64,000 nt of DNA from Hyphomonadaceae bacterium (GCA_019753175.1 JAIELK010000026.1:19251-83250), one strand, 5' to 3'. Positions 13,733 through 34,574 are shown, counted from the stretch's first letter. A program made the numbers and translations. Notes: generated by a model not told the origin, from the letters alone.

Positions 13733-13809
13733 TGGTCGGGGCGGCGGGATTCGAACTCGCGACCCTTAGCTCCCAAAGCTAATGCTCTACCAGGCTGAGC
13801 TACACCCCG
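13733..13809 (-). tRNA. tRNA-Pro (anticodon UGG)
   Basis: The reverse complement is CGGGGTGTAGCTCAGCCTGGTAGAGCATTAGCTTTGGGAGCTAAGGGTCGCGAGTTCGAATCCCGCCGCCCCGACCA. The anticodon loop is TTTGGGA and CCA is encoded. There is one A-C mismatch in the T-stem. Confidence 0.9.
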
Positions 13810-13923
13810 ACGAGGGCGCTCCTGTTGCCACGGGCCGCGTCGGTCCGCAACGAGGAATTGCTCGATTGTCGAAATGGTTCAGGCTGTGTTTACTGCGGCT
13901 GCTTTTGAGGCCAGCGGCTGGCG

Positions 13924-14907
13924 ATGCAAGCATCCGATGTTCTCTCCGAGTCGGGAAAAAACTTGCAGGACCTCGCTTCCAAGCCTTGGCAATCCGACAC
14001 TCTGGCGCCCCCAGAGGAGATTTTCGCGGCCAAGGGTATGATCGGGCCCGAGGAGCGACGCTGCTACTTTTGGCTCGGGAAAAACTGGCTTTCGGGCCAG
14101 GGCTGCATCGTCGATGCTGGCGCCTTTGTCGGCGCGTCAACGCTTTGCTTTGCCTCGGGCGCGGCGACCGGCGGTCGCCGCGATTTCAAGGGCGAACCTC
14201 TGGTGCACGCTTACGACTACTTCAAAGTCGTCGACAAGTATGTGGGGGAGTCGATTTCCCGCGACTTCCACCCCATCGAGGAGGGCGAAAGCTATCTAGA
14301 GATTTTCGCAGCGCAGGTCGGTCCGTACATAGATATGATCCGCGCCTATCCCGGCGACTTCCTTACACATCGCTGGCGCGGCCTTCCTATAGAAATCCTG
14401 TTCATCGATATCGCCAAGACCGCAGAACTTTGTGCGCATGCCATCCGCGAGTTCTTTCCGTGCCTGATACCCGGGCGGTCTGTGGTCGTGCACCAGGATT
14501 ACTTCCACTGCTGGCACCCTTACATCCATGTCGGCATGCAATACCTAGACGACGAGTTTACACTTGTAGACGAGCTGGTGCCTTATCAGAGCCGCGTTTG
14601 GCGCCTCGCCAAGCCCATCCCGGCCGACAAGATCGCGCGGCTCGCGGCTTACGATTTCAGCATGGATGATCGCATCGCATTGCTCGATCGGTTGATCGAG
14701 AGTTCTTCGCCTACGAGCCGGCCGATGAACGAAGTGGTCCGTTTTTGGCAGATGTGCCTGGATGGCTCCCGCGAACAGGCGATGCGCGAGTTCGAACGCC
14801 TAGACGGCGTGTATGGGTTCAAGAACAGATACGAGCTCTGGGCGAGGCAGGCGCTGCAAGTCAGAGCAACGCTTACGAGCGACGATCGGGGGGAGAGCTA
14901 TGGCTGA
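13924..14907 (+). CDS. putative class I SAM-dependent methyltransferase (Methyltransf_24/TylF-like)
   Basis: 327 aa. It has a motif I-like GCIVDAGAFVGAST and a later acidic block ILFIDIAK. It is the first gene of the island. Confidence 0.6.
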   Translation: MQASDVLSESGKNLQDLASKPWQSDTLAPPEEIFAAKGMIGPEERRCYFWLGKNWLSGQGCIVDAGAFVGASTLCFASGAATGGRRDFKGEPLVHAYDYFKVVDKYVGESISRDFHPIEEGESYLEIFAAQVGPYIDMIRAYPGDFLTHRWRGLPIEILFIDIAKTAELCAHAIREFFPCLIPGRSVVVHQDYFHCWHPYIHVGMQYLDDEFTLVDELVPYQSRVWRLAKPIPADKIARLAAYDFSMDDRIALLDRLIESSSPTSRPMNEVVRFWQMCLDGSREQAMREFERLDGVYGFKNRYELWARQALQVRATLTSDDRGESYG

Positions 14908-14912
14908 GATCA

Positions 14913-15191
14913 ATGCGCACGTTGATCTGGAGAACGCGCGCGCTGTCTTTAGATTTTTTCGATCTTCACAGGAAAGAACTGACCCAGGCAACGTGGGCCG
15001 ATCCTGACATCGCGTTCGAGTTTGTCGCCGCGGGCGCTAGCGATCCACGTCTTGAAAAGGCCGTGGCTCTCATGCAGCGATTTTGGAGCACAATTGACCG
15101 TCGGCCGCCCCTCAAGGCCTGGAGAGATTGCGTTATGATCGCAAGGGATCCGAAGAGCTACCTCGTCCGCGCCGGGTCCTGGACCGGTTGA
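14913..15191 (+). CDS. hypothetical small protein (start and frame uncertain)
   Basis: 92-aa reading from ATG 14913. An alternative ATG at 14900 has a much better Shine-Dalgarno (GGGGGAGAG) but is in another frame, which stops at 15007. The two frames meet at a T6 run (14952-14957). Confidence 0.3.
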   Translation: MRTLIWRTRALSLDFFDLHRKELTQATWADPDIAFEFVAAGASDPRLEKAVALMQRFWSTIDRRPPLKAWRDCVMIARDPKSYLVRAGSWTG

Positions 15192-15302
15192 TCAGCGGTG
15201 CGTTCTCTTCAAGCAATGGGTGAGCCGCCGTGCGACTATGCCCTGAAAGCTTTCGTTGACGCCGCCAGCGGGCCTGTCCTTTAGTTGCGGACGGAGGTGG
15301 GC

Positions 15303-16019
15303 ATGGGCGTGCAGGAGGATACAGCGCTGGCGGAGCCGGAGGCGCGCGGCGAGGAGGCGGCTCGCGTGGCAGGCGCGCCGGACCCGAACCTCGAGGCGCT
15401 CCGCCAAGCTGTTGCTCTACTCGTCCGCCGCCTGGACCAACTCGGTGCAGATCGAGATGAGACCGCGTTCGCAATCGCGCAATCGGCAATGGCGAGGCTC
15501 ACACGGATAGAAGAAGACCACGGGAGACTGGAAGATCGATTGGCTTCTGTTGAGCGTCAGCTGCGCAATATCAAGTCGGCGGGTCAGGAGTTCTGGCGCT
15601 CCGAGGCGCTTTCATACCTGGCCGCTACAAGCGGCAATTGGACCTACGAAGCAACCGAACCAAACCTCTACTTTGAAGATCTGTTCGACGTTGACGTACC
15701 GCGGGGGCAGAAGCCAAGACGCTGGGTCGGCCGTAGCGGAAAGCTCTCCGGAGAACTCCTGTTCAATCGCACGCGTCCCGCGCGGCTTGGCGTTCAAGTG
15801 GCGGCGTTTGCACTTCCGAGCATTGCCGATACGCTGCAGCTCTCCATCGATGGCGAGCGCGTCGCTTGGGAGAGCACCCATAACAGATTGTATGTAGCGG
15901 TGGTGCCGCCGGCGAGCACACCCGGCCTGTCCTTTGAATTGTGCGTGGACATGAAGGGGGTCCCACCCGAGAAAGACGTGTCGTTCGCGTTCGAGCGAAT
16001 ATGGGTGCAGGCCGTCTGA
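15303..16019 (+). CDS. hypothetical protein with N-terminal coiled-coil-like region
   Basis: ATG 15303 is preceded by GGAGGTG. The N-terminal part is heptad-like and charged (LEALRQAVALLVRRLDQL...RIEEDHGRLEDRLASVERQLRNIK). I do not recognise the C-terminal ~130 aa. Confidence 0.55.
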   Translation: MGVQEDTALAEPEARGEEAARVAGAPDPNLEALRQAVALLVRRLDQLGADRDETAFAIAQSAMARLTRIEEDHGRLEDRLASVERQLRNIKSAGQEFWRSEALSYLAATSGNWTYEATEPNLYFEDLFDVDVPRGQKPRRWVGRSGKLSGELLFNRTRPARLGVQVAAFALPSIADTLQLSIDGERVAWESTHNRLYVAVVPPASTPGLSFELCVDMKGVPPEKDVSFAFERIWVQAV

Positions 16020-16029
16020 GGGCGCCGTC

Positions 16030-16941
16030 GTGAAGCTCAGCGTTATCATCTGCACCTGCGACAGGTACGATTTGGCATCGACGGCGGTAGCGTCCGTGGT
16101 GGCGAGCGCGGGCTTCGACAGCGCGACAATGGAAGTCGTGGTTGTCGACAACACGCCTTCTCCGCGCCGTTCGAATGTCGAATTCGATCCGGCAAGGTTG
16201 GTTGTGTGCGATGAGCTTGGCCTTTCGCGGGCCAGGAACACCGGCATTGCGGCAGCCAAAGGCGAGATTGTTGCTTTTCTGGACGACGATGCCCGAGCCC
16301 AAGACGGCTGGTGTACGGCGATTGTCTCCTCTTTTGCGCGCTTTCCAAAGGCGCAAGCCATCGGCGGCAAGACCACGCCGCACTTTGCGTCTGACGACTT
16401 GCCCAAGTGGTACTACCCGGAGTTAGCGGGCTATTACTCGTGTCTCGATTGGGGGGACGCCGCGCGCCCGCTCAACACGGGCGAGTGGATCGTCGGCGCG
16501 AACATGGCGTTCCGCGCGGCGACGCTGGCGCGCTTCAATGGGTTCGACGTGTCGCTGGGACGCAAGGGCGCCCACGGGCTGCTCAGCAACGAAGAGACGG
16601 CGCTAATGCGGGCGATCGGGCTAGACCATATCTATTACGTGCCTGAGATGCTCGCCGATCATCTCGTGCCGCACGAGCGTCTATCAGTTGCGTGGCTCCG
16701 AAAGCGGGTGTTCTGGCAGGCTGTTTCAGACGCGTTGTCCGGAGAACTTTGGACGACGCCCGCGGAAGCCGCGCGAGAGCTGCGGAATCTTGTCGCCTCC
16801 TCGCCGGCAGAGTTCAGGGGGCTGAAGCTCTTTCGGTTTGCGCCGCGTGCGCCCGCCGAGCTACGCGACCAGCTCAGAGCCATCTACTTGCAAGCCGTGC
16901 TGATGAGCGACGGCTTCGACATTGGCGAGGAGGCGCGATGA
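16030..16941 (+). CDS. family 2 glycosyltransferase
   Basis: LSVIICTCDRYD...VVVVDN...LSRARNTGIAAAKGEIVAFLDDDA is a GT-A fold with a DxD motif. The whole protein is paralogous to the C-terminal domain of the 22521-25934 protein. Confidence 0.85.
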   Translation: MKLSVIICTCDRYDLASTAVASVVASAGFDSATMEVVVVDNTPSPRRSNVEFDPARLVVCDELGLSRARNTGIAAAKGEIVAFLDDDARAQDGWCTAIVSSFARFPKAQAIGGKTTPHFASDDLPKWYYPELAGYYSCLDWGDAARPLNTGEWIVGANMAFRAATLARFNGFDVSLGRKGAHGLLSNEETALMRAIGLDHIYYVPEMLADHLVPHERLSVAWLRKRVFWQAVSDALSGELWTTPAEAARELRNLVASSPAEFRGLKLFRFAPRAPAELRDQLRAIYLQAVLMSDGFDIGEEAR

Positions 16942-18851
16942 CCGCCCGCCGAGCGCTGGTGCTGAGCCCGTTTGCTACCGTTCCCGCGGACGCAGGCCAG
17001 CGGCGCAGGGCGCTGCAAACCACGCGCCTGCTAGCGGACGCAGGCTACGACATCACCTTCGTGCTCTATGCGTTCGAGGACGGCTGGAAGGCGCGCGTCA
17101 ACGAGCACTGGCGGCGCGACTTGTTGCGGCAATGGCCTGAAACCTTGATCTGGCGCGCGGAAGGACGCGTAGGCCAACCGCCGGCGGAGGGCGAGTTCCA
17201 TCATTTGGACGAGTGGTGGGAACCGTCGTTGGAGACCTTGCTGACGAAGCTCGTCCAGTACAATGACTTCGCAGTTGTGGTGGTGCACAATGTTTGGCTG
17301 TCGCGCGCGCTCGACTTCCTGCCGAAGCGCACCGTGCGCGTGATCGACACGCACGACGTGTTTTCGCGCCGCATCGCCGCGTACCGCGCCGCTTCCCTGC
17401 AGCCGGACTTCTTCGCCATTCGCGAAGAGGCGGAGTTGTTCGGCATCGACCGCTCCGACATTGCGCTGATGATCCAGGGAGAAGAGGCCGAGTGGCTCAG
17501 TAGGAAGACAGACGCGCTGGTCGTGAACTTGCCTTACTTTGAAACTTCGCCGACGGCGCATGCGAGCAACGACTATCAATGCCCTGACAAGGTGGTGTTC
17601 GGCTTCCTTGGCTCGGCCCACCCGTTCAACCAGCATGGATTGAAGGCGTTCCTGTCAGCGCTGAAGCGCGAAGTGGGCGAACGGGATTCTCCCGTCGAGC
17701 TGTTGATCGGCGGCAAGATCTGCGAGAGCGTCGAGGGGCGTGGCCCTTGGACATTGTGCGGCTATGTCGGAGATGAAGCGGAGTTCTTCGCCAAAGTGGA
17801 CGTCGTGCTCGCGCCCGTGTTCGCCGGAAGCGGCTTTTCGGTAAAGACCTTCGATGCCATCCGCCACGGCAAGCCCTTGCTCGCCGCCGCGCACGCCGCG
17901 AAGGGCTTGGCGCTGACGCCAGAGGTTGTTGCGGAGACGCCCGCCGAGCTTGCGAAAGCCGTGGTCGATGTCGCCGAGCGGCGACCGCCGCTGGCGGCGC
18001 TGCGGCGGCCAATCGAGCGCGCGCGCATCCAGCTTCAGGTCGATTGCGAACGGGGAACGCAGACGTTCTTGCGCGCGCTCAAGCGTTTCGAGCGGGTCGT
18101 GATCTACGATTTGCGCGGTTTCAACGACAGGCGGGCGGCGGCGGTGCTGCTGTCTTGGACCGGCGCCATGCACGTGCTCAACGACATCGCACGGCAATAT
18201 GTGCTGAGCGATGCTCCGTGGGTGGCGGAGCTTGTGGCCAACGCCCCGCCCAGCGTGCATCATCTCACGCACCCCAAAGCGGATATCGTCGAACGTGCCG
18301 CGCTCGTGGTCAGCGCCGCCGCACAGGAGGGCGCGCAACCGGAAGACGCCTCGTCCCACCATGACGCGATCTGGGCGCGCGCGTTTGGATCCGCCGGCGA
18401 TGGTGTGCGTTGCGACGGGCGCGGGCTGTTCTGGCACAATTCACGCTGGGACCCGATGCTGAAGGGACTGATCGCTCAGCTTGCGCGTGACGGGCAGCCG
18501 ACATTGGCGGGAACGGTGCTGGTCTTGGCTGGCGACCGGGCCGCCCGCGTCGGGGCCGAGCTGGAGGCGCTGTTCGACGGCGCGGGCGCGGCGATCTCGC
18601 TCGATGACGAGACGACGTTCCTGGATTGCCTGGCGGCGGTTTGCCAGCGGGCGCCGAGCGTGGTGGTGCTGGAGGAGGCGACTTCGCCGCGTGCGCTGAT
18701 CCTGGCGCGGCTCTGCGTGGCGTGTTCGGTTCCGGTGCACGTGCCGCCGCCGCACAATCTGCCGAGCCAGGACCGCGCCGACCGCGCGTTCGAGACATTC
18801 TGGCGGGAAAATTTGTGGGGGGCGGCGCTTCGCGACCTTAGTGCGGTGTAA
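16938..18851 (+). CDS. GT1/GT4-like (GT-B) glycosyltransferase with ~240-aa unknown C-terminal domain
   Basis: ATG 16938 overlaps the upstream stop (ATGA). It starts ALVLSPFATVPADAGQRRR. The C-terminal Rossmann half is FGFLGSAHPFNQHG...VLAPVFAGSGFSVKTFDAIRHGKPLL. The upstream part of the 719-aa ORF overlaps the GT2 gene. Confidence 0.75.
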   Translation: MTARRALVLSPFATVPADAGQRRRALQTTRLLADAGYDITFVLYAFEDGWKARVNEHWRRDLLRQWPETLIWRAEGRVGQPPAEGEFHHLDEWWEPSLETLLTKLVQYNDFAVVVVHNVWLSRALDFLPKRTVRVIDTHDVFSRRIAAYRAASLQPDFFAIREEAELFGIDRSDIALMIQGEEAEWLSRKTDALVVNLPYFETSPTAHASNDYQCPDKVVFGFLGSAHPFNQHGLKAFLSALKREVGERDSPVELLIGGKICESVEGRGPWTLCGYVGDEAEFFAKVDVVLAPVFAGSGFSVKTFDAIRHGKPLLAAAHAAKGLALTPEVVAETPAELAKAVVDVAERRPPLAALRRPIERARIQLQVDCERGTQTFLRALKRFERVVIYDLRGFNDRRAAAVLLSWTGAMHVLNDIARQYVLSDAPWVAELVANAPPSVHHLTHPKADIVERAALVVSAAAQEGAQPEDASSHHDAIWARAFGSAGDGVRCDGRGLFWHNSRWDPMLKGLIAQLARDGQPTLAGTVLVLAGDRAARVGAELEALFDGAGAAISLDDETTFLDCLAAVCQRAPSVVVLEEATSPRALILARLCVACSVPVHVPPPHNLPSQDRADRAFETFWRENLWGAALRDLSAV

Positions 18852-18854
18852 CCC

Positions 18855-19763
18855 TCACATCCGCGCTTCAGCCGAGAGGACCGCATCAATCCATCGCGCC
18901 TGTCGATGCAACATCTCGCGCAACTCCTCTCGCCTTCCGTTCTGAACAAAGTCATATGCGTAGAAAGGCGCGAGATGTCGCGAGAATGAGTCGATATCTG
19001 CGTTGTTGGCCATCATAGCAGGCAGCCAACGTTCTCTATTGGCGGAGACGTCGGTCCCATTGGAAAAGGGTCGCCATTCATCTAGCGCAGGGCTGAGCGC
19101 CTGATAGAGGGCAATGTCTTGGTCGAAGTGTTTTGGCGCGTCAACTCGAATCGCCTCCGCTTGTTCAGTCAGGAAGTCCCCATGATCGGGTGCGCTCCAG
19201 CGCAGGTTGTCAGGGATCATTTTTTCGCCAGATAAGCCTATCAGCTCTAGCAGCCGACGTGCTGATTGTTCGAAACCAGCAAGGCTGTATATCAGATCAA
19301 ACAGGCGCGCGGCCTCGAGCGCCTTCTCCGCCAGCGATCCCTTGGCCTGTGCGTCGATCGTGGGGAACGCTCGCAGGAACTCAGCGCACATGACGTTCGT
19401 CCGCATCGAAAGAAACGCTTCTGCAGTGAGGGGAGTGCGGCCCGCCGCAATCGCCACCTTGCACATCTGGTGATATTCGCTGACCGCTTTCTCCACCGGA
19501 TCGCGAACACCTGTGAACCAGACCATGTCGCGATCGCGAAACACGCTGAAGAGCGACTCGTGCACGTAATGACCAAACACGAAGTCGACTTGTTTCCAGT
19601 CGAGGCGGCAAGGCAACTCTTGCCAGCTAAGAATTGCAGCGTCGACCGGTGCGGAGCAGATGTAGTGTTTGTGCGGCGACAAAGCGTCTGTAACAGCGTT
19701 GGCTAGGGTGGTTCCAGCGCACTTGGTGATATGCAAGCCTACAAGGACTGTCATTGATTGCAT
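18855..19763 (-). CDS. sulfotransferase-family protein
   Basis: It has a 5'-PSB-like motif GLHITKCAGTTL and a 3'-PB-like motif GVRDPVEKAVSEYHQ, with the spacing expected for PAPS-dependent sulfotransferases. An alternative start is ATG 19754. Confidence 0.75.
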   Translation of the reverse strand: MQSMTVLVGLHITKCAGTTLANAVTDALSPHKHYICSAPVDAAILSWQELPCRLDWKQVDFVFGHYVHESLFSVFRDRDMVWFTGVRDPVEKAVSEYHQMCKVAIAAGRTPLTAEAFLSMRTNVMCAEFLRAFPTIDAQAKGSLAEKALEAARLFDLIYSLAGFEQSARRLLELIGLSGEKMIPDNLRWSAPDHGDFLTEQAEAIRVDAPKHFDQDIALYQALSPALDEWRPFSNGTDVSANRERWLPAMMANNADIDSFSRHLAPFYAYDFVQNGRREELREMLHRQARWIDAVLSAEARM

Positions 19764-19808
19764 CCTGATCGCGCAACGAAGGCGCGGGGTGCTCCACGTC
19801 TGGCAATG

Positions 19809-20831
19809 CTAATCAGAGCTGAGCACCTCGCCCGCCCAAATATTCACGAAACGGTGCGCGGCGTCTTCGGTGGCGTAGTATTGTCCGATCCGAAGTTGAT
19901 CGAGTTCGGCATCGTCGAGGCGCACCGAGCGCTGGGATCGGCTATCGTACCAGCGAAACGCTTTTGTCAGTGCGACCCTGCCAGCCTTGAGTCCGTGCAC
20001 GAAGAAGCTGAATCCGGTCTCGATCGGTCCCGTCGCGCGCAGGATTGCCCAACCGTGTTTGCGGGAGAAGGCCGCTTCGACGGAGTCAGAAGCGCGCACC
20101 CACTTCACACCAGTGAAGTCGACGTTGTGAATTACGATCTCGATCTCGCGTGGGTATTTTCGGTGCGAGTTCGGCAGATCGCGGATCGTAAAGGAGTACG
20201 GAAGGTTGCCGATGATGTCGTCAAGGAACACGATACGGCCCGGATTCCAAACAACGACATGCTCGCCTTGGGTATCGAAGTTCCAACGGTGGAAGCCTGA
20301 ATAGGCGGCATTCTCCGCTTCGTTCTGGCAGACGTTGATGAAGACTTTCGCTCCAGGCTTCGCCACCCGCAGCATGTTCTGAATCGACAAAGGGGCGTCC
20401 GCACAGTGATCGAGAGCGTTCCTTGAGTGTACAAAGTGGAAGGAGTCAGCGGCAAAAAGCCTGTTCAAGTCTTCCGCCATGCCTTTGATTGCGCGATGCG
20501 GCGGCTCAACGCCATACTCTCGCATGAGGTCGCGATAGGCGTCCGCCAAGGGATCGACCCCCACGATGTTCAAAGATACGTCACCGCATTTTTTACCGAG
20601 CACAGAAAGCGGGCCACATCCCACATCGAGAACGCGCGCGCTTTCGTCACCAGCATGAGAACTTAAGAAGACCGATCGAACCGGTTCAGCGAGAGTCGAG
20701 GTGGGGCTGAGCAAATGCTCGATGTAAGGATCGCCACTTGCTTGCCGCTTCTCGAACACGCGCTTCCAATAGGCGAGTTCGTCATTCTCCATGCTCTCTT
20801 CAGCACTGAGAACTTGGGTCGAGTCAGCCAT
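19809..20831 (-). CDS. class I SAM-dependent methyltransferase with unknown C-terminal domain
   Basis: Motif I is RVLDVGCGPLSVLG, followed by IVGVDPL and FHFVHSRNALDH. Shine-Dalgarno GAAGGA lies 7 nt upstream of the ATG. Confidence 0.8.
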   Translation of the reverse strand: MADSTQVLSAEESMENDELAYWKRVFEKRQASGDPYIEHLLSPTSTLAEPVRSVFLSSHAGDESARVLDVGCGPLSVLGKKCGDVSLNIVGVDPLADAYRDLMREYGVEPPHRAIKGMAEDLNRLFAADSFHFVHSRNALDHCADAPLSIQNMLRVAKPGAKVFINVCQNEAENAAYSGFHRWNFDTQGEHVVVWNPGRIVFLDDIIGNLPYSFTIRDLPNSHRKYPREIEIVIHNVDFTGVKWVRASDSVEAAFSRKHGWAILRATGPIETGFSFFVHGLKAGRVALTKAFRWYDSRSQRSVRLDDAELDQLRIGQYYATEDAAHRFVNIWAGEVLSSD

Positions 20832-21006
20832 CGATCATCCTTCTGCACTCTCCTTAGTTGAGTGACAGCTGACTGCCTAGTCGCTCGCCGTCGCCCCTGC
20901 GTAACGCATCACCGTGGCGCGCTTATCTCAAGGCTTGCGTATGACGCGAAAGTTGCTGTTCTGTCAGCTTTGGCGCCAAGCCTCTGAGATCGCAGGTGAG
21001 AGAAAC

Positions 21007-22524
21007 ATGGCGGACGCTTCCTTCGACGGCGGCGCGCTCGACAGCTTCGACGGCATGATCACCGGCGAAGAGGCGCAATTGCTTCATCGTCTCGCGGCGG
21101 AGCTTGAAGCGGGCTGCATCGTGGAGATCGGATCGTGGCGCGGCAAGTCGGCAATCGCCATGGCGATGGGCGCCCGACTGCAGCCGCCCGACCGGCGATC
21201 CATCGTGTACTGCGTTGAACCACATGCGGAATTCATCGGGCTTTATGGCGGACGCTTCGGCCCGGATGACCGCAAGGCGTTTTTCGAGGCGGTCCTGCGC
21301 GCCGACTGCGCGGACGCTGTGGCGCTGATCAACCTGCCGAGCGCGGCGGCAGGGAGAGCGTGGTCACAGCCGATCGGGATGCTGTTCATTGACGGCGACC
21401 ACAGCGTGGAGGGGGTCAAGGCGGACGTGGAGCTGTGGACGCCGTTCCTGGTCGATGGCGGCTACATCGTCTTCGACGATGCGCTTGATCCCGAGGCCGG
21501 TCCCGCGCATGCGATTGCCCGCTTGCTGGCGTCAGGGCGATACGCGCGCGCCTGCGCCGCCGGCAAGGTGGTGGCGTTGCAGAAGCTCCCCGACACCGAA
21601 GCGGAACGGGCGGAGCGCACTCGCCGCAACGCCGCGGCCGCGGTTCGCGTGCGCGCGCTTGCAGCTGGATACGATCCCGAGGTCGCCGTGCGGAGGCTGT
21701 CGTACGGGTCGTTCGTCTCGCTGAAGCATCGCTACGTCTATGTGGAAACGCCGAAGGCGGCCTGCACCTCCTGGAAAAGGGTGATCGCGCGTGTCGAGCA
21801 GGCAAGTGTCGAAGAGAATTCTCCACCTTACCATCGCGAGAGCCGGTTGGAGATGCTTATCCATCAGCGGCGCTATGTCGACATCCCGACATTGCTCGAC
21901 GTTGAGGAAAGCGAACACGCCGCCATCCTCGATGGCGATCCCGAGTGGTTCGTGTTCGGGCTCTGCCGCAATCCGTACAGTCGGGTGGTGTCGGTGTTCG
22001 AAAACAAGGTTCGGCTGCGCGAGCCTCACTACGCCGATCTCCATCGCCGCTATGGCGGGGCCGGCGCTTACGCCGAGGTCAAGCAAGCGTTCGCTGCGTT
22101 TGTGCGCGAGGTCGTGAGCGTGGCGGCGTTCCGTAACGCCGATGCGCACCTGTGCCCGCAAACGGATCTGCTGATGCCTCGCCTCATGCCGTACACCAAA
22201 TTATTCAAAGTGGAGGAGATGGACGCGGCGTTGAATGCGTTCTCATCGCATCTGGCCGCTCACGGCTGCCAACAGGGCGTCACCCTGGAGCGCTTGAACG
22301 AAACCGTATCGTGGCCATGGCGCGCGTACTATGATGAGTTGAGCGCGGCCGCCGTCGCATCGGCCTATGAGCAGGATTTTGCGGCGTTCGGCTATGATCG
22401 CAGTGATTGGCGCAGCGACGCGAATGCAACCTCTCCTCCGGTTGATGAGAGCGCGTGGCGGGCGCAGGTCGTCGATCGCAACGCCATGATCGACCGGCTG
22501 TACGATTGGCTCGCGCAGCGCTAG
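21007..22524 (+). CDS. fusion protein: N-terminal class I methyltransferase (Methyltransf_24-like) plus C-terminal carbohydrate-sulfotransferase-like domain (Sulfotransfer_2-like)
   Basis: The N-terminal part has CIVEIGSWRGKSA...MLFIDGDHSVEGVKADVELW...GGYIVFDD. The C-terminal part has YVYVETPKAACTSWKRV (5'-PSB) and FGLCRNPYSRVVSVFENKV (3'-PB), closely resembling CHST-type motifs. ATG 21007 is preceded by AGGTGAGAG. Confidence 0.78.
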   Translation: MADASFDGGALDSFDGMITGEEAQLLHRLAAELEAGCIVEIGSWRGKSAIAMAMGARLQPPDRRSIVYCVEPHAEFIGLYGGRFGPDDRKAFFEAVLRADCADAVALINLPSAAAGRAWSQPIGMLFIDGDHSVEGVKADVELWTPFLVDGGYIVFDDALDPEAGPAHAIARLLASGRYARACAAGKVVALQKLPDTEAERAERTRRNAAAAVRVRALAAGYDPEVAVRRLSYGSFVSLKHRYVYVETPKAACTSWKRVIARVEQASVEENSPPYHRESRLEMLIHQRRYVDIPTLLDVEESEHAAILDGDPEWFVFGLCRNPYSRVVSVFENKVRLREPHYADLHRRYGGAGAYAEVKQAFAAFVREVVSVAAFRNADAHLCPQTDLLMPRLMPYTKLFKVEEMDAALNAFSSHLAAHGCQQGVTLERLNETVSWPWRAYYDELSAAAVASAYEQDFAAFGYDRSDWRSDANATSPPVDESAWRAQVVDRNAMIDRLYDWLAQR

Positions 22525-25500
22525 ATGTTCGCCAGCTTACGGATGGTCGATCTCAGCTGCGGATTGCGCTGCATCTCGCGCCGGACGCTCGCCAGCAGCT
22601 TGTCCTGAAACGACGCCTGCGACTTGCCGGTCTCGTCCAGCTCCACACCGCCGGCGAGCATGGCGATGACGATGTCGTACATGAGCCCGACATCGCGCCG
22701 GAACGCCTCCCGCTCTGTGTGGGCCTGCACGAAGCCAGGCGGCGGGGCGCCTTCAGGGGACTGGGCGAGTTCCTGGCGGAGCCGTTCGGCTGCGGCGCGC
22801 GCGTACGCTGACGCTTTCTCGGGGTCCTTGATGTAGTCGGAAACGGCTTGCCACGCGGCGCGGCGGCGAAACCAGCTCTGCTGCAGGCGCGCCGGTTCGA
22901 TCAGGTGCTCGACCGTGGCGTCTGGAGCGTAGATCGCGATGCGGCCAGCGTCGACAAAGCGGTCGATAACCGCGCTCTCTTCGTTGGACAGCAAAGCCGC
23001 GCCGGCGCCCACACGACCCAAGGCGCGCGAAAAGCCGCCGAGCGCAAGGAGCGTGTCGCGCTCGAACGCAATGTTGCATCCAGCCAGCCATTCGGTCTTG
23101 CCGAGTGGCCGCGTCCGCCCGCCCCAATCGACAATCGAGAGATTGCCGATGAGTTCATCCGGCAGCCAGTCGGGCCTCGGCGCGATCCAGCGGGGCGTGA
23201 TACGCCCGCCAACTACACCGGCTTTGGGACTGAACTGGCGGAACGCCGCGACGACATTGCGCGCCCAGTCCGAGGCAGCTACCGCGTCGTCATCGATATA
23301 CGCGACGTAGCGCGCGCTGCACGCCAGGGCGCCCACATTGCGGGCGTTGGACAGTCCGGGAATCGGTTCGAGCAAGTAGCGCACTCGCGTGCCCGCATAG
23401 CGCGCAGCGAAGCGGGCGGCCTCGGTCTGGTCCGGCGAGTTGTCAACGACGATGATGTCGAGGTCGTTTGCGTCAATGTCCTGCTGTAGCACCGACTCGA
23501 TCGCACCCGGCAAGACATCGTAGCGATTGTACGTGCAGATCACTGCCGCCAGCGGATGCGTTACGGGGACTGCGCGCGCCAGTGCTACCGCTGGCGCCGG
23601 CGTGGCTTTTCGCGCGAGCGGCGGCAGCTCCCATAAGGCGCCCTCCAACGATCCGGTGAGCGGAGGCGCTGATGGCGCCACGGTCATGTCGCCGAAGCTG
23701 GGTTGTGCGCGCAGGATCGCTTGTCGCCAATGCGCACGGTAGGCGTCGGGTGAGACATTGCGCTCATAGAGCGCGATGGCCGCTTCCGCACGGCGGCGCA
23801 ATGCGGCGTTATCCGTGAGCAGCTCGACCAGATCTGCGGCGAGGGCTTGCGGCGTCGCCGCCATCACGCGCTCGTAGCCAGTGACGTCGAGCCCGCGCAT
23901 GCTGACCGAGGTCGCGACGAACGGGCGGCCAAAGCGGAGCGCATCCAGCGCCTTGATCGAAACGCCGCTCGCTTCTTGGTCGGCGACCGCGAGCACACGG
24001 GCGCGGCCGAAAAAGTCGCCAAGCTCGTCGACGAAGTCGGCGAAGACCACGTTGTGGAGCCTCCGCAGGCGATCGGGGAGTAAGCGGGTGACGCGGCCGA
24101 TTACAGCGATGCGCGCTTGCTGGAGCGTGTCGTCCAGTGGGCGAACCCGGTCGAAGAACCACTCCACCGCGCGCGCATTGGCCCGGTGCCAGTCACCCCA
24201 CAGCAAGACATCGATGGTTTCGCGCTCGGCAAAGGCGGCGCTTAATTGGTTCGCGGTCACGACATCTGACCACGGTCGGAGCGTCATGTTTGCTTTCGGG
24301 GCCGCTGGGGCGATTAGAAACGCGGCCTTGGCGTGTGGGGCTATCGCATCGTGGTCCGCGGCGGTGAGGTTCACGCAGACGTCCGCGCGCCGCCAGAGGT
24401 CGCGCTGGTCTGAGTCCCGCATCGCGCGCGGTTCGCTGCCTAGATCGACGAAAGGGGGCCAGCCGTGGCTTTCGAGTTGCTGCAGCACGACGTCGTGGGT
24501 TTCAAGCACGACGGGGGCGGCGGACAGCCGTTGGGCGAACGCCATGTGGAAGGCGTGATTAACAACCGTGAGCTGCGCCGCGCGCGTGGCCCAGGCCAAG
24601 ACATCGGCGTCTTGCGGGTCTCTCGGTTTCGCCAACGAAAGCTCAAGTTCCAGCCTACGCACAGCTGATCGTCGTTTGTAGTCCTCCGTGCGACGCAGCT
24701 TTCTTTGATCGGCAGACCTCGCGGGGCGAACGGCGACGGCAAACAGATGCGGGCGGACCTCCGCCAGATCCTCTCGCAACAACGCGTCTCCGACGTGTCT
24801 CGGGCGATCGTGATGTTCGACAAACACCCGTGCGACGATGGCGCCGCCCTCAATCAGCGCCTCCGTTTGCGCATCGAAAACGGCTGAGCTGCCGACACGG
24901 CCCCAAAGTGCGGTAACCAACAGCACGACCGGGCCGAAGGCTTTGACCTCGAAAGAGGGCGAACCATTGAGCTCGCCGCTTCGGACGGCATCGATAAAAG
25001 CGGCGACGTCGCACCCACTGATCGCCTTCACATCGGCGCGCAGCGATTGGGATAGATGTGTGGCGGCGTCAGCGCTTGCCGCGCACAGAATGACCGCGGT
25101 GCAAGGTGAGCTGCTGCGGAGCTTATCAGCCAATAGACTGAGGTGGCGCTCGCTGGCGGCGAAGCCTTGGGCAAAGAAAATGTAGAGCGTCGATGGCGTT
25201 GGGCGAGCGAGGCCAAGTCGCCACACAAGGCTGAACAGGGGGTCGAAGTCTTCGATCGTTTTTGCCGTCCACGCAATGGCGTCGTCGGCAGTCAGCGTCA
25301 GCTCTTTACGTGTATGCTGAGCGCGCTCCTTGCGCGCAAATTGAGTCTGTCGTTTCGCGTGCTGGGGCGGCGCCAGCTCAAAGCCGAGCAGTCGAGTGGT
25401 GAAGTCCGCGGCTGGAAACAAAAAAAGCCGATAGCACGCCGACCACAGACGCTTGGCCGCAGCGAGCGCCGAAAGAACCATCCGGGTGAGTGATTGGGCG

Positions 25501-25934
25501 CTCCGCCGGTAGGCGCGCTCCAACACGCGCGCGGCTGGGCTGCACAGCGCATAGGCGGCCCAGTACACGCGGTTAAGGGCGCCAGCGACGCGTTCAAGGA
25601 TAGGAAACGCATACGACCAGAAGAGGCGCTTCAGAATCCTCGCCGATGGCCCGCACAGTGCGTAGGCGCGCCAGTAGAGCCAAACAAAAGGGCGGGAAGC
25701 AAAAAAGAGAAAACTCGCGCCAACGAAGCGCGCTCGGTATCCGATCCTGATCGCCAACCAGATTGGCACCGCGAGCACGACACTCGGGCTGCGACGCTCT
25801 TCGCGCCACACACGCCGCGACCAATCATCAAGGGACTCGATGAGATTCTGTCGGTCCGCTGCACCGCCGGTGAAGCTTTGAGACGTCAACTCGACGTTGC
25901 TAAACGTTCGGCGTGGCTGCCTGGACTCCCCCAC
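22521..25934 (-). CDS. 1137-aa multidomain glycosyltransferase: repeat-containing hydrophobic N-terminus, unknown domain, GT1/GT4-like domain, C-terminal GT2 domain
   Basis: GTG start. The N-terminus has an internal duplication (YWRAYALCGPSARILKRLF / YWAAYALCSPAARVLERAY). The central GT-B-like region is (...VVLETHDVV...VLAVADQEASGVSIKALDALRFGRPFV). The C-terminal GT-A domain is (AAVICTYNRYD...IIVVDNSPD...LSNARNVGALACSARYVAYIDDDA). Confidence 0.8.
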   Translation of the reverse strand: MGESRQPRRTFSNVELTSQSFTGGAADRQNLIESLDDWSRRVWREERRSPSVVLAVPIWLAIRIGYRARFVGASFLFFASRPFVWLYWRAYALCGPSARILKRLFWSYAFPILERVAGALNRVYWAAYALCSPAARVLERAYRRSAQSLTRMVLSALAAAKRLWSACYRLFLFPAADFTTRLLGFELAPPQHAKRQTQFARKERAQHTRKELTLTADDAIAWTAKTIEDFDPLFSLVWRLGLARPTPSTLYIFFAQGFAASERHLSLLADKLRSSSPCTAVILCAASADAATHLSQSLRADVKAISGCDVAAFIDAVRSGELNGSPSFEVKAFGPVVLLVTALWGRVGSSAVFDAQTEALIEGGAIVARVFVEHHDRPRHVGDALLREDLAEVRPHLFAVAVRPARSADQRKLRRTEDYKRRSAVRRLELELSLAKPRDPQDADVLAWATRAAQLTVVNHAFHMAFAQRLSAAPVVLETHDVVLQQLESHGWPPFVDLGSEPRAMRDSDQRDLWRRADVCVNLTAADHDAIAPHAKAAFLIAPAAPKANMTLRPWSDVVTANQLSAAFAERETIDVLLWGDWHRANARAVEWFFDRVRPLDDTLQQARIAVIGRVTRLLPDRLRRLHNVVFADFVDELGDFFGRARVLAVADQEASGVSIKALDALRFGRPFVATSVSMRGLDVTGYERVMAATPQALAADLVELLTDNAALRRRAEAAIALYERNVSPDAYRAHWRQAILRAQPSFGDMTVAPSAPPLTGSLEGALWELPPLARKATPAPAVALARAVPVTHPLAAVICTYNRYDVLPGAIESVLQQDIDANDLDIIVVDNSPDQTEAARFAARYAGTRVRYLLEPIPGLSNARNVGALACSARYVAYIDDDAVAASDWARNVVAAFRQFSPKAGVVGGRITPRWIAPRPDWLPDELIGNLSIVDWGGRTRPLGKTEWLAGCNIAFERDTLLALGGFSRALGRVGAGAALLSNEESAVIDRFVDAGRIAIYAPDATVEHLIEPARLQQSWFRRRAAWQAVSDYIKDPEKASAYARAAAERLRQELAQSPEGAPPPGFVQAHTEREAFRRDVGLMYDIVIAMLAGGVELDETGKSQASFQDKLLASVRREMQRNPQLRSTIRKLANI

Positions 25935-26068
25935 AGCGGTTTTTCCTAGCCAAGGTCTCTAGTGCGTCTGACCGAGCGCCCGTGGCCAAACGGACGCACG
26001 GGGTGTCTCCGTCGTGGAGGACCCGGCCTGCGATTGTCACATGAACTCTCGGTGAGCGTCGCCCGCGG

Positions 26069-26141
26069 TGCCGCCTGAGGGACTCGAACCCCCGACCCCC
26101 TGATTACAAATCAGGTGCTCTACCAGCTGAGCTAAGGCGGC
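26069..26141 (-). tRNA. tRNA-Thr (anticodon UGU)
   Basis: The reverse complement is GCCGCCTTAGCTCAGCTGGTAGAGCACCTGATTTGTAATCAGGGGGTCGGGGGTTCGAGTCCCTCAGGCGGCA. The anticodon loop is TTTGTAA. The genome continues CCG, so CCA is not fully encoded. Confidence 0.9.
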
Positions 26142-26308
26142 GCGGCGGTCCTTTTGCCAGCGTCACGGCGAACACGGAAGTGCGCAAAAGCCTGTGAGGT
26201 CCCGAGGTCGCAGCTTTGCGAGGCGGGGATAATGTGGTTAACCGCCATCTGCGCCTGCACATGGGGCATCAGGCGCAGACGCGGGCAAGCGCGCGAAGAG
26301 GTGGGCTC

Positions 26309-31522: not shown

Positions 31523-32353
31523 TTGAGGCATTTGAGCTTGGCGTTCGCGATCATCGGGTGCTGCGCTGCTCTGGCTGGATGTTTGTTGGCTGGCGGTGCT
31601 GACGATGTCGAAGTGGACATACGTTGGAGCGAGATGCCGCGTCAGTTGCGGTTCGGCGAGGCCAATATGGTGGTCGAACGCGTCGAGCAACCCATCGAGG
31701 AAGCGGAGGTTCTCGCTTCCGTCCAAAGGCTCGTGGCGCGGCAGACCACCTGCTTCTCGTGGCCGGCGTTATGGCTGGACCCGGAAGGACCGCGCGGATT
31801 GTTCGTCGTGCGCTACGACCTGATGACGCGCGACTGGGGCGGCGATGTCGCAGAAGCCAGCCACCGTCGTATGCAAGAGTTCGTGGACCAAGGCTTCCTG
31901 ATTGAAGACCCTGCCCAGCGAGGGGAGGGCGTTGCGAGGTATAGGCTGACGGAGACTGGCGCTGCGCGGCTCAACGGTTCACCGTATCGAACGCAGCGCG
32001 CTCAATTCTGCGCGCCCGTGGAGCGGCGGGTGGTCGCGATCACCAACATGCAGTGGGGAGAGTTCAGCTGCGGCAATTTGCGTGTTCAGTTCACCCATGT
32101 CGCTGACGACTGGCCTTCTTGGGCACGCAGCGAGGAAAGCAGACGCCGAGTTGCGCAAAGGTGGGGTGCTGTCGGTGTAAGCGCACCGGGTTTCGTAACG
32201 CTTGCGCGACAATGGTTTCGCCCCGAGCAGATGCCTGCAGACATGCTGCGCAACGGTGAGTTGCGTTCGGTGTGCTTTGATGAGCAGCGACGCACCGTGA
32301 TCGGTGACGACTTGACGCTCGGCGCCGCTGCAAGTGCGGAGGGCGGGGGCTAG
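31523..32353 (+). CDS. hypothetical lipoprotein
   Basis: TTG start 5 nt after GGGAGG, with lipobox AALAGC. I recognise no domain. Confidence 0.5.
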   Translation: MRHLSLAFAIIGCCAALAGCLLAGGADDVEVDIRWSEMPRQLRFGEANMVVERVEQPIEEAEVLASVQRLVARQTTCFSWPALWLDPEGPRGLFVVRYDLMTRDWGGDVAEASHRRMQEFVDQGFLIEDPAQRGEGVARYRLTETGAARLNGSPYRTQRAQFCAPVERRVVAITNMQWGEFSCGNLRVQFTHVADDWPSWARSEESRRRVAQRWGAVGVSAPGFVTLARQWFRPEQMPADMLRNGELRSVCFDEQRRTVIGDDLTLGAAASAEGGG

Positions 32354-34299: not shown

Positions 34300-34535
34300 G
34301 CTGCTGCGGAGAATCCGGTTCGCGCGGCTGATCCCGGCCGTCGAACGAGCGACGTGCGCCGGCAGGTCTCCTGGCTCGCGGGTCTTTGCCCGCCGCCGCC
34401 TTCCCGTCGGTAGACAGTGGCGTTGTGGCGTTGGGCTCGCCGCTTACAGTTGCGGGCACAGCCGCGGATTTGAGACCGTCGCCTCACACCGCGTTCCCTC
34501 TTCACGCCCCGAGGGGCGACCGTCGCGGCATTGCT
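34300..34535 (-). promoter_or_regulatory. cobalamin (B12) riboswitch in the btuB leader
   Basis: The minus strand carries the B12 box AGCCAGGAGACCTGCC (34361-34376). Upstream core blocks are present: GGTCGCCCCTCGGGGCGTGAAGAGGGAACGCGGTGTGAGG...GGCTGTGCCCGCAACTGTAAGCGG...GGGAAGGCGG. Confidence 0.85.
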
Positions 34536-34574
34536 TCTAGCATGGCGGAAGCGCCGGCCAAGACGCAAACGGAC

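What the first reader, a model, noticed from the sequence alone, without database searches (positions are those of the whole stretch)
13810..26068. An ~12 kb island between tRNA-Pro and tRNA-Thr encodes glycosylation, methylation and sulfation enzymes but no export, initiation or precursor genes
Nine ORFs lie between tRNA-Pro (13733-13809) and the 3' end of tRNA-Thr (26069), in mixed orientation. By eye they are A/T-richer than the flanking core genes, most clearly at 18.8-21 kb; I did not compute GC. The domain inventory I can read is as follows.
- Three class I SAM-methyltransferase domains: 13924-14907, 19809-20831, and the N-terminus of 21007-22524.
- Two PAPS-type sulfotransferase domains with clear 5'-PSB and 3'-PB motifs: 18855-19763 and the C-terminus of 21007-22524.
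- Two GT2 and two GT-B modules: 16030-16941, 16938-18851, and both fused in 22521-25934.
- A coiled-coil protein.

I see no Wzx/Wzy or Wzm/Wzt exporter, no WbaP/WecA-type initiating transferase, no nucleotide-sugar genes, no cysC/cysDN, and no integrase. Dedicated carbohydrate sulfation is uncommon in bacteria. Combining two sulfotransferase lineages with three methyltransferases around polymerase-like multidomain glycosyltransferases suggests a sulfated and methylated surface glycan. Alternatively it could be a terminal capping system analogous in logic to the WbdD kinase/methyltransferase chain terminator. The product cannot be inferred from this window.
Basis: partly seen in the sequence, partly recalled or inferred. 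Interest (0 to 1): 0.78.

Follow-up and report, generated by a model that had tools for sequence, protein, structure and literature searches.

The report
Glycan-decorating gene cluster lacking its exporter
This 12 kb stretch of a Hyphomonadaceae genome holds the sugar-adding, methylating and sulfating enzymes of an uncharacterised cell-surface polysaccharide pathway, but the transporter genes that sit beside its closest relatives elsewhere are missing here, at a point where gene order breaks down.

Summary
The gene inventory is real. There are eight solid ORFs and one doubtful one between tRNA-Pro and tRNA-Thr:
- two GT2 and two GT4 glycosyltransferase modules;
- a methyltransferase–sulfotransferase (MT-ST) fusion;
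- a second, divergent sulfotransferase;
- one clear and one weak extra methyltransferase;
- a protein with a coiled coil and a beta domain.

No exporter, initiating transferase, nucleotide-sugar, PAPS or integrase gene occurs anywhere in the 64 kb window.

The two closest homologous loci found (53–71% identity for g1, g8 and g9) keep the same g8/g9 layout. They continue directly into wzm–wzt, the ABC exporter genes. In the window that position is tRNA-Thr, at a synteny breakpoint. Two more distant loci also link the g3–GT2–GT4 triad to wzm–wzt.

I read the island as the cytoplasmic assembly and decoration half of an ABC-transporter-dependent polysaccharide cluster. Its exporter is either elsewhere in the genome or lost.

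A terminal cap of the WbdD type is possible but unproven. Distant sulfotransferase homologues do occupy the terminator position next to Wzt proteins that carry a carbohydrate-binding domain. The nearest relatives, however, have a short Wzt without that domain.

The acquired-island idea is only weakly supported. Composition is mostly native and there is no integrase or att repeat, yet the block is absent at this site in three relatives.

Verdict: a new variant of a known kind, of moderate interest.

The parts
13733..13809 (-). tRNA-Pro(tgg), left boundary. Its 5' end, not its 3' end, faces the island.
   Evidence: ARAGORN; Rfam.
13924..14907 (+). g1: divergent class I methyltransferase-like protein, 327 aa. 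Its homologues are a conserved partner of the MT-ST fusion.
   Evidence: Weak Methyltransf_24 match, below the cut-off. The motif I region aligns to O-methyltransferase 2hnk. It is 66-71% identical to genes in L101/L102 and 41% to L004.
14913..15191 (+). g2: doubtful small ORF of about 92 aa within ORF 14745-15191.
   Evidence: No Pfam or NCBIfam hit. Codon usage z -3.0. The locus-tag numbering of the deposited MAG leaves room for one gene here.
15285..16019 (+). g3: protein with a coiled coil and a beta domain (conserved RWVG motif). First gene of the conserved triad g3-GT2-GT4. Function unknown.
   Evidence: Only coiled-coil matches in PDB. 60 representative clusters among 1.84 billion proteins. 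Always encoded upstream of a GT2, in most loci followed by a long GT4 (L094, L095, L097, L017/L004, L016, L098). In L094 a g3-like beta-domain match also lies at the C-terminus of the GT4.
16030..16941 (+). g4: soluble GT2 glycosyltransferase, 303 aa.
   Evidence: PF00535, E 3e-15. 38% identical to the L004 GT2.
16938..18851 (+). g5: GT4 (GT-B) glycosyltransferase, 637 aa, with an uncharacterised C-terminal extension of about 290 aa.
   Evidence: PF13692, E 3e-10. Homologous to the L004 GT4 of 721 aa. No predicted TM segment.
18855..19763 (-). g6: divergent PAPS-type carbohydrate sulfotransferase. Motifs: 5'-PSB HITKCAGTT and 3'-PB VRDPVEKAVSEY. It has the lowest GC in the block.
   Evidence: Only 17 database clusters. 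Homologues follow the GT4 in L094 and L095.
19809..20831 (-). g7: class I SAM methyltransferase (Methyltransf_23/11) with an unassigned C-terminal half.
21007..22524 (+). g8: fusion of a MeT1-like O-methyltransferase (residues about 10-195) and a Sulfotransfer_2 domain (about 235-465). Motifs: TPKAACTS and CRNPYSRVVS.
   Evidence: Pfam. MeT1 6g7d, E 4e-11. AF2 pLDDT 88.6, and Foldseek top hit MeT1. The PAPS-motif residues K250, R321 and S329 are invariant or nearly invariant in 23 homologues.
22521..25934 (-). g9: 1137-aa two-module glycosyltransferase. An N-terminal amphipathic region is followed by GT4 (about 576-708) and GT2 (about 793-1030). It is the likely main polymerase.
   Evidence: Pfam. 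53-55% identical over its full length to the 1138/1220-aa proteins of L102/L101, which are followed by wzm-wzt.
26067..26141 (-). tRNA-Thr(tgt), right boundary and synteny breakpoint. It occupies the place that wzm-wzt hold in L101/L102.

Best explanation
The block is the cytoplasmic assembly and decoration half of an ABC-transporter-dependent (Wzm/Wzt-type) cell-surface polysaccharide cluster, either O-antigen-like or capsule-like.

**Inferred mechanism.**
- Backbone: g9 (GT4+GT2) and the triad g3-g4-g5 (coiled-coil/beta-domain protein, GT2, long GT4) build a glycan at the inner face of the membrane. All are soluble or peripheral proteins, and the glycan is presumably polyprenol-linked.
- Decoration: g8 (O-methyltransferase fused to a PAPS sulfotransferase), g6 (second sulfotransferase), g7 and perhaps g1 (methyltransferases) add O-methyl and O-sulfate groups, using SAM and PAPS.
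- Export: the finished chain would leave through Wzm/Wzt. In the two closest homologous loci these genes lie divergently next to the g9 homologue. Here that position is tRNA-Thr at a rearrangement breakpoint, so the exporter must be encoded elsewhere or has been lost. The same applies to the initiating transferase, sugar-nucleotide synthesis and PAPS synthesis.

**Shown:** domain identities, motif conservation, gene-neighbourhood conservation, and absence of exporter genes in the 64 kb.

**Inferred:** the pathway type, the lipid-linked intermediate, and the nature of the product. A mannose-rich backbone is only hinted at, by the MeT1-like methyltransferase and by NTP_transferase/AGE-family genes that could supply an activated sugar such as GDP-mannose, found in sister loci. 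Also inferred, and unresolved, is whether the modifications are terminal caps or decorate each repeat unit.
For: 1. L102 and L101 are the closest loci found. They carry a g1 homologue (66-71% identity), then MT_24, a sulfotransferase and a methyltransferase, then a g8 homologue (58-60%), then a convergent g9 homologue (53-55%, 1138/1220 aa). ABC2_membrane (280 aa) and ABC_tran (249 aa) follow directly.
2. L004 and L017 combine the g8 homologue, g1 homologues and the g3-GT2-GT4 triad with wzm-wzt. They also carry WcbI, a GHMP kinase, two NTP_transferases and an AGE-family epimerase or isomerase.
3. In 12 further metagenomic loci the MT/ST homologues lie directly downstream of wzm-wzt.
4. No island protein has a predicted TM segment, and no Wzx/Wzy-like ORF is present.
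5. Both sulfotransferases keep the 5'-PSB and 3'-PB motifs.
6. The methyltransferase domain is closest to the oligomannoside 1-O-methyltransferase MeT1 (function from PMC9883506).
7. All ORFs are full length relative to their homologues, so there is no sign of decay.
Against: - No wzm/wzt anywhere in the 64 kb.
- Triad loci L094, L095 and L097 also show no ABC exporter within the sequence available. That is up to 10 kb on each side for L094 and L095; L097 is a 5.8 kb contig.
- One 52%-identical MT-ST homologue (L001/L014) sits among TetR, FMO, Sulfotransfer_1 and acyl-CoA dehydrogenase genes with no glycosyltransferases, so the fusion is not restricted to glycan clusters.
- No biochemical data exist for any member.
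- The rest of the genome could not be inspected.
Confidence: 0.62

Rival explanations
1. The MT-ST fusion, with g6 and g7, is a chain-terminating capping system that is functionally analogous to WbdD. Sulfate and/or methyl groups are placed on the non-reducing terminal sugar. This stops polymerisation and marks the chain for export. This is a refinement of the main explanation rather than an alternative to it.
For: - In distant homologous loci the order is wzm, then wzt carrying the Wzt_C carbohydrate-binding domain, then a methyltransferase of about 205 aa, then a giant protein of 770-1736 aa. That giant protein runs N-terminal Sulfotransfer_2, then a region of weak, sub-cut-off coiled-coil-type Pfam hits (seen in 2 of the 5 giant proteins), then WbsX/GT2/GT4/RgpF modules. 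This is the layout of terminator-polymerase proteins.
- Separate MT and ST genes in those loci correspond to the fused g8 here.
- WbdD itself is a bifunctional kinase and methyltransferase that regulates chain length (PMC3482155).
- Wzm/Wzt often requires a modified terminus that is recognised by a binding domain (PMC9445017).
Against: - The closest relatives (L101, L102, L004, L017) have a Wzt of 247-252 aa without Wzt_C.
- g8 has only one 25-residue C-terminal helix and no extended coiled coil.
- Two sulfotransferases plus two or three methyltransferases are more than a cap needs, which suits per-residue decoration better.
- g3 shows no similarity to Wzt_C (hhalign probability 0.5%).
Confidence: 0.25
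2. The cluster makes a product that needs no dedicated exporter. Candidates are an intracellular methylated and sulfated oligo- or polysaccharide, like the mycobacterial methylmannose polysaccharide, or a glycan built directly on a protein or lipid. On this reading the missing export and initiation genes are a genuine property.
For: - Three independent triad loci besides the window (L094, L095, L097) show no ABC exporter within the available flank.
- All enzymes are soluble.
- The best match of the methyltransferase domain is MeT1, from the four-gene cytoplasmic MMP cluster of methyltransferases, a mannosyltransferase and a hydrolase.
- L095 has a glycoside hydrolase (GH16) next to the module.
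Against: - The closest homologues of g1, g8 and g9 lie next to wzm-wzt. So does the triad in L004/L017, and another ABC/HlyD exporter accompanies it in L098.
- The L095 GH16 has a signal-peptide-like N-terminus, so it acts outside the cytoplasm.
- No cytoplasmic sulfated polysaccharide is known to me in bacteria (my own knowledge).
Confidence: 0.12
3. The block is a recently acquired, tRNA-targeted genomic island.
For: - It is bounded by two tRNA genes, and the 3' end of tRNA-Thr faces the block.
- It is absent next to tRNA-Thr or Mur in three related MAGs that have enough flank: L008, L010 and L011.
- Flanking housekeeping proteins are 64-95% identical in relatives. The best homologues of the island proteins in 5.8 billion sequences reach only 41-60%, and 66-71% for g1 in L101/L102.
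- g6 and g7 have lower GC and GC3.
- A sister triad lies next to an IS66 TnpB gene.
Against: - No integrase or recombinase gene and no att-like direct repeat of either tRNA.
- Five of the eight solid genes have native GC3 and codon usage.
- In the relatives the whole left flank differs: cytochrome c, AcrAB and NAD kinase stand in place of RecJ, TRAP and tRNA-Pro. The site is therefore a rearrangement breakpoint, not a clean insertion.
- Whether tRNA-Pro and tRNA-Thr are adjacent in any relative could not be tested.
Confidence: 0.2

Closest known systems
E. coli O9a O-antigen cluster (wzm-wzt-wbdD-wbdA...), the prototype ABC-transporter-dependent pathway with a terminal cap
   Same: - Soluble, multi-module glycosyltransferases.
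- A bifunctional modifying enzyme that combines a methyltransferase with a second group-transfer domain.
- Homologous clusters place these genes next to wzm-wzt.
- Initiation and part of the precursor supply are encoded elsewhere.
   Different: - The second domain is a PAPS sulfotransferase, not a kinase, and there is no sequence homology to WbdD.
- There is no long coiled coil on the modifying enzyme.
- The nearest relatives have a Wzt without the carbohydrate-binding domain.
- The exporter is absent from this locus.
- Extra sulfotransferase and methyltransferases are present.
WbbB-type terminator-polymerase proteins and the Aeromonas salmonicida cluster Wzt - 'hypothetical protein with sulfotransferase domain' - WbbB (PMC4483657)
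   Same: A sulfotransferase-domain gene sits between wzt and a large multi-domain glycosyltransferase. The authors of that paper could not explain it, because no sulfate was reported in that O-antigen. Distant homologues of g8 found here show the same layout, or a direct fusion of sulfotransferase, a coiled-coil-like region (weak Pfam hits) and glycosyltransferase modules.
   Different: In the window the sulfotransferase is fused to a methyltransferase rather than to the polymerase. I made no sequence comparison with the Aeromonas protein. The terminator role is untested in every one of these systems.
Mycobacterial methylmannose polysaccharide cluster (MeT1, MmpH, pMeT3, ManT; PMC9883506)
   Same: - The methyltransferase domain of g8 is the closest sequence and structure match to MeT1 (25% identity, E 4e-11).
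- Methyltransferases are clustered with a GT-B transferase.
- The locus has no exporter.
   Different: - That product is cytoplasmic and is not sulfated.
- There is no MmpH-like hydrolase here.
- The glycosyltransferases here are different and larger.
- Sister loci carry exporters.
Known bacterial sulfated polysaccharide clusters (Vibrio sp. KMM 8419 and Cobetia marina capsules, cyanobacterial synechan; PMC11641403, PMC11766843, PMC13125312)
   Same: Glycosyltransferases are clustered with PAPS-type sulfotransferases for a sulfated extracellular glycan.
   Different: - Whether these clusters use a different export route was not checked here; the papers were seen only as titles and abstract starts.
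- No MT-ST fusion or g3-type protein was noted in those titles and abstract starts.
- I made no direct sequence comparison.

Membership tests
ABC-transporter-dependent (Wzm/Wzt) polysaccharide biosynthesis cluster | A Wzm (ABC-2 permease) and Wzt (ATPase) pair encoded in the cluster. | tested here: not met
   Absent from the whole 64 kb (tblastn). Present next to the homologous genes in L101, L102, L004 and L017.
ABC-transporter-dependent (Wzm/Wzt) polysaccharide biosynthesis cluster | The complete glycan is assembled by soluble or peripheral, often multi-module, glycosyltransferases, with no Wzx flippase or Wzy polymerase. | tested here: met
   Four GT modules in three proteins. No hydrophobic TM-like segment in any island protein. 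No polytopic ORF.
ABC-transporter-dependent (Wzm/Wzt) polysaccharide biosynthesis cluster | Initiation on undecaprenyl phosphate by a WecA/WbaP-type enzyme, and ligation to lipid A-core or another anchor. | not testable with these tools
   No such gene in the window. The rest of the genome was not available.
WbdD-type chain terminator | A catalytic domain or domains that modify the non-reducing terminal sugar. | tested here: inconclusive
   The MT and ST domains are intact. Sequence cannot show whether the site of modification is terminal or internal.
WbdD-type chain terminator | An extended coiled coil that positions the terminator relative to the polymerase (a molecular ruler). | tested here: not met
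   The g8 model has a single helix, residues 480-504. The only coiled coil is in the separate protein g3.
WbdD-type chain terminator | A partner Wzt with a C-terminal carbohydrate-binding domain that recognises the cap. | tested here: not met
   Wzt is 247-252 aa without Wzt_C in L004, L017, L101 and L102. Wzt_C is present only in loci with distant sulfotransferase homologues.
PAPS-dependent carbohydrate sulfotransferase (Sulfotransfer_2 / heparan sulfate 2-O and 6-O sulfotransferase-like) | The 5'-phosphosulfate-binding motif (PKxxxT-type, with a conserved Lys) and the 3'-phosphate-binding motif (RxPxxRxxS). | tested here: met
   - g8: TPKAACTS and RNPYSRVVS, with K250, R321 and S329 invariant or nearly invariant.
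- g6: ITKCAGTT and RDPVEKAVS, with K11, R84, P86 and S92 conserved. These align to both motifs of 5t03.
PAPS-dependent carbohydrate sulfotransferase (Sulfotransfer_2 / heparan sulfate 2-O and 6-O sulfotransferase-like) | A sulfotransferase fold. | tested here: met
   - g8: PF03567 at 53.9 bits against a cut-off of 22.
- g6: AF2 pLDDT 88.7. Most of the top Foldseek hits, including the eight best, are sulfotransferases (E 1e-4), but TM-scores are only 0.36-0.44.
Integrase-mediated tRNA-linked genomic island | An integrase gene and a direct repeat of the tRNA 3' end at the far boundary. | tested here: not met
   No integrase among the ORFs. The only repeat between the boundaries is the generic similarity of the two tRNAs.
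Integrase-mediated tRNA-linked genomic island | Atypical composition, and absence from the same site in relatives. | tested here: inconclusive
   Only g6, g7 and the 14-15 kb stretch deviate. The block is absent in L008, L010 and L011, but the whole left flank is non-syntenic there.
Mycobacterial MMP-type intracellular polymethylated polysaccharide cluster | MeT1, pMeT3, ManT and the MmpH hydrolase together in a four-gene cluster. | tested here: not met
   Only the methyltransferase domain resembles MeT1. No hydrolase is present. The glycosyltransferases are of different architecture. The cluster definition comes from PMC9883506.

The most novel reading that the evidence does not exclude
Sulfation by Sulfotransfer_2-type domains could be a previously unrecognised way of terminating and marking glycan chains in Wzm/Wzt pathways. 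On this reading the MT-ST fusion of this island would be a stand-alone version of that terminator, a sulfate/methyl counterpart of the phosphate/methyl cap made by WbdD.

The g3 protein would then tie the terminator or the nascent chain to the GT2/GT4 polymerase. The basis for that idea is that g3 is always encoded with a GT2, usually followed by a GT4, and that a g3-like domain match also lies at the C-terminus of one GT4.
Probability: 0.2. Interest if true: 0.7.

Novelty: new variant of a known kind. Interest (0 to 1): 0.45.

Why it matters
Sulfated bacterial surface glycans are known chemically, mostly from marine bacteria, but their genetics are thin. I found no paper in the searched library that assigns a role to sulfotransferases in Wzm/Wzt-dependent pathways. 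The one gene of this kind that was noticed, in Aeromonas salmonicida, was left unexplained.

This island and its sister loci define a recurring, uncharacterised toolkit:
- an MT-ST fusion;
- a rare second sulfotransferase family with 17 database clusters;
- a g3 family with 60 representative clusters, always paired with a GT2, usually followed by a GT4.

If the sulfotransferases act at the chain terminus, this would add a new chemical cap to the known set (methyl, methyl-phosphate, beta-Kdo). It would also give testable candidates.

If they decorate every repeat unit, the cluster is simply one more O-antigen or capsule variant in an uncultured soil or freshwater alphaproteobacterium.

Tried and rejected
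- **Exact-sequence look-up of window proteins.** It failed for g8 and g7, so the source MAG is not indexed. The remaining 27 kb of its 91 kb contig, and the rest of the genome, could not be inspected.
- **g3 as a detached Wzt carbohydrate-binding domain.** Rejected at sequence level: hhalign probability 0.5% against eight Wzt_C domains. No Pfam or PDB sequence match exists for its beta domain.
- **Profile of the g8 sulfotransferase domain against PDB sequences.** No hit. In the Foldseek list the methyltransferase domain dominated, so structural support for the g8 sulfotransferase domain rests on Pfam and the motifs only.
- **att-site search.** Nothing beyond the similarity of the two tRNAs.
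- **Contigs of related MAGs ending near the island (L006, L007, L009, L012).** I first read these as a sign of a variable locus. Three of them end inside the Pro-rich repeat of the neighbouring muramidase gene, which is an ordinary cause of assembly breaks. Only L009 ends exactly at tRNA-Thr.
- **Literature searches.** Searches for sulfotransferase with wzm/wzt, with chain termination, and for Hyphomonadaceae sulfated glycans found no characterised precedent.
- **PDB sequence searches with g5 and g1.** Nothing useful.


Full report
**Source and setting.**
The window is 64% GC. Outside the block it carries housekeeping genes: ThiG, RecJ, a TRAP transporter, MetG, RlmB, Tuf, the ribosomal protein operons, SecY, RpoA and a DegP-like protease. 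The proteins g8, g6 and g3 are identical to entries from a 'MAG: Hyphomonadaceae bacterium' on a 91,303-bp contig. The right flank runs Mur-MetG-RlmB-tRNA-Tyr/Gly-u276-BtuB-Tuf. It is syntenic in seven related MAGs labelled Terricaulis, Hyphomonadaceae or Caulobacteraceae, at 64-95% protein identity for all but u276 and BtuB, which are 37-49% identical.

**Checking the observation.**
The two tRNAs lie where stated. Pfam confirms the following:
- GT2 (g4);
- GT4 (g5);
- a class I methyltransferase (g7);
- the Methyltransf_24 + Sulfotransfer_2 fusion (g8);
- the GT4 + GT2 giant (g9).

Two assignments were below Pfam thresholds. The first is g1, which is only Methyltransf_24-like. The second is g6, and I tested it further.
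- Seventeen homologues exist in 5.8 billion sequences.
- Their profile matches heparan sulfate 6-O-sulfotransferase across both PAPS-binding motifs (E 8e-4).
- A confident AF2 model (pLDDT 88.7) retrieves heparan sulfate 2-O and 6-O sulfotransferases first, although TM-scores are low at 0.36-0.44.

The g8 model (pLDDT 88.6) has its methyltransferase domain closest to Mycobacterium hassiacum MeT1. MeT1 is a sugar 1-O-methyltransferase of the methylmannose polysaccharide pathway (PMC9883506). The motif residues of the g8 sulfotransferase domain are invariant or nearly invariant in 23 homologues.

g3 has an N-terminal coiled coil and a beta-rich domain with no known relative. A ninth small ORF is doubtful.

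The claimed absences hold for the whole window, not just the block.

The A/T-richness is local. It covers g6-g7 and the 14-15 kb stretch. The rest has native GC3 and codon usage.

**What the neighbours of homologues say.**
This was the informative step. The closest loci found are L101 and L102. They carry a g1 homologue (66-71% identity), further methyltransferase and sulfotransferase genes, a g8 homologue (58-60%) and a convergent g9 homologue (53-55%; 1138 aa against 1137 here). An ABC-2 permease and an ATPase, that is wzm-wzt, follow directly.

In the window the same g8/g9 arrangement ends 133 bp before tRNA-Thr. The exporter is missing exactly at that junction.

A second module is the triad g3-GT2-long GT4.
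- It recurs in L094, L095 and L097, where no ABC exporter was seen within the available flank; in L094 and L095 it sits with a g6-type sulfotransferase.
- It recurs in L098, where g3-GT2 sit with a separate GT4 and an ABC/HlyD-type exporter.
- It recurs in L004 and L017, together with the g8 and g1 homologues, wzm-wzt, and genes for making an activated sugar.

The window's block is therefore a composite of these two modules. g6 and g7 lie inverted between them.

**More distant relatives.**
Twelve metagenomic loci place MT/ST homologues immediately downstream of wzm-wzt. In several, Wzt carries the Wzt_C carbohydrate-binding domain. It is followed by a separate methyltransferase and then a 770-1736-aa protein. 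That protein consists of Sulfotransfer_2, then (in two of the five) a stretch with weak coiled-coil-type Pfam hits, then WbsX/GT2/GT4/RgpF modules.

This is the layout of terminator-polymerase systems. WbdD is a kinase and methyltransferase that sets chain length (PMC3482155). Capped termini are read by the transporter (PMC9445017). An unexplained sulfotransferase-domain gene between wzt and wbbB was reported in Aeromonas salmonicida (PMC4483657).

**Interpretation.**
The best-supported reading is that the block is the assembly and decoration part of an ABC-transporter-dependent surface polysaccharide pathway (confidence 0.62). The exporter, initiator, sugar-nucleotide and PAPS genes must lie elsewhere, or the exporter was lost in the rearrangement. 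The ORFs are intact, which argues for a working system with its partners elsewhere.

Whether the modifications form a terminal cap is open.
- For: the distant fusions favour a terminal role for this sulfotransferase family.
- Against: the nearest relatives have a short Wzt without a binding domain. g8 lacks a ruler-like coiled coil. The number of modifying enzymes suits per-residue decoration.

A non-exported product remains possible, because three triad loci show no exporter in the available flank. It is less likely, given the links to wzm-wzt.

**Acquired-island question.**
There is no integrase and no att repeat. Three relatives with enough upstream sequence lack the block. Two of them (L010, L011) have tRNA-Thr preceded by cytochrome c, AcrAB and NAD kinase genes, and their upstream regions are syntenic with each other. 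Nothing upstream in any of the three matches the window's first 26 kb.

The block thus lies at a rearrangement breakpoint. Its proteins have no close homologues anywhere: 41-60% at best in the database searches, and 66-71% for g1. This is consistent with an accessory, horizontally exchanged cassette, but recent tRNA-targeted integration is not shown.

**Limits.**
The rest of the genome could not be searched. No structure was obtained for g3, the g9 N-terminus or the g5 C-terminus. All functional statements are inferences from sequence, predicted structure and gene neighbourhood.

Noticed in passing
window 34344-34539 (-): Cobalamin riboswitch (120.9 bits) directly upstream of the BtuB-like TonB-dependent receptor at 32350-34215(-). 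This is an ordinary arrangement.
   Followed up: no
window 26216-27793 (+), repeat at 26369-26572: The gene next to tRNA-Thr encodes two PF11860 N-acetylmuramidase domains behind a Pro-rich low-complexity repeat of about 90 residues. Contigs of three related MAGs (L006, L007, L012) end inside this gene, and one (L009) ends exactly at tRNA-Thr.
   Followed up: partly
window 56848-58656 (+): A 602-aa fusion of many TPR repeats with a putative 2OG-Fe(II) oxygenase domain (PF13759). It lies between a pseudouridine synthase gene and an ATP12 chaperone gene.
   Followed up: no
L041 8545-12867; L062 7688-15160; L079 7861-13990; L087 9227-14422; L085 9223-13618: Metagenomic clusters with wzm and wzt followed by giant proteins made of Sulfotransfer_2 and glycosyltransferase modules, with weak coiled-coil-type hits in L062 and L087. 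Pfam confirmed Wzt_C only in L041 and L033; the Wzt of L085 and L087 is short (262 and 242 aa). A separate small methyltransferase lies between in L041 and L046 only. The sulfotransferase sits where chain terminators normally sit, so these are candidates for a sulfate cap.
   Followed up: partly
L001/L014 10001-11524 and neighbours: A 52%-identical homologue of the MT-ST fusion lies among TetR, flavin monooxygenase, Sulfotransfer_1 and acyl-CoA dehydrogenase genes, with no glycosyltransferase nearby. Part of this family may act on small molecules.
   Followed up: no
L094 3437-13312: A sister locus combines the g3-GT2-GT4 triad with three sulfotransferases (Sulfotransfer_2, the g6 type, and a PRSGTT-motif protein of 257 aa) and two Methyltransf_21 genes. 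A g3-like beta-domain match (E 1.9e-6) also lies at the C-terminus of its 865-aa GT4.
   Followed up: partly
L097 111-452: An IS66-family TnpB gene lies directly upstream of a g3-GT2-GT4 triad. This hints that the triad moves as a cassette.
   Followed up: no
window 31523-34215: An unknown lipoprotein-like gene (u276) and the BtuB-like receptor are inserted between tRNA-Tyr/tRNA-Gly and tuf. The arrangement is conserved in the related MAGs whose sequence extends that far.
   Followed up: no
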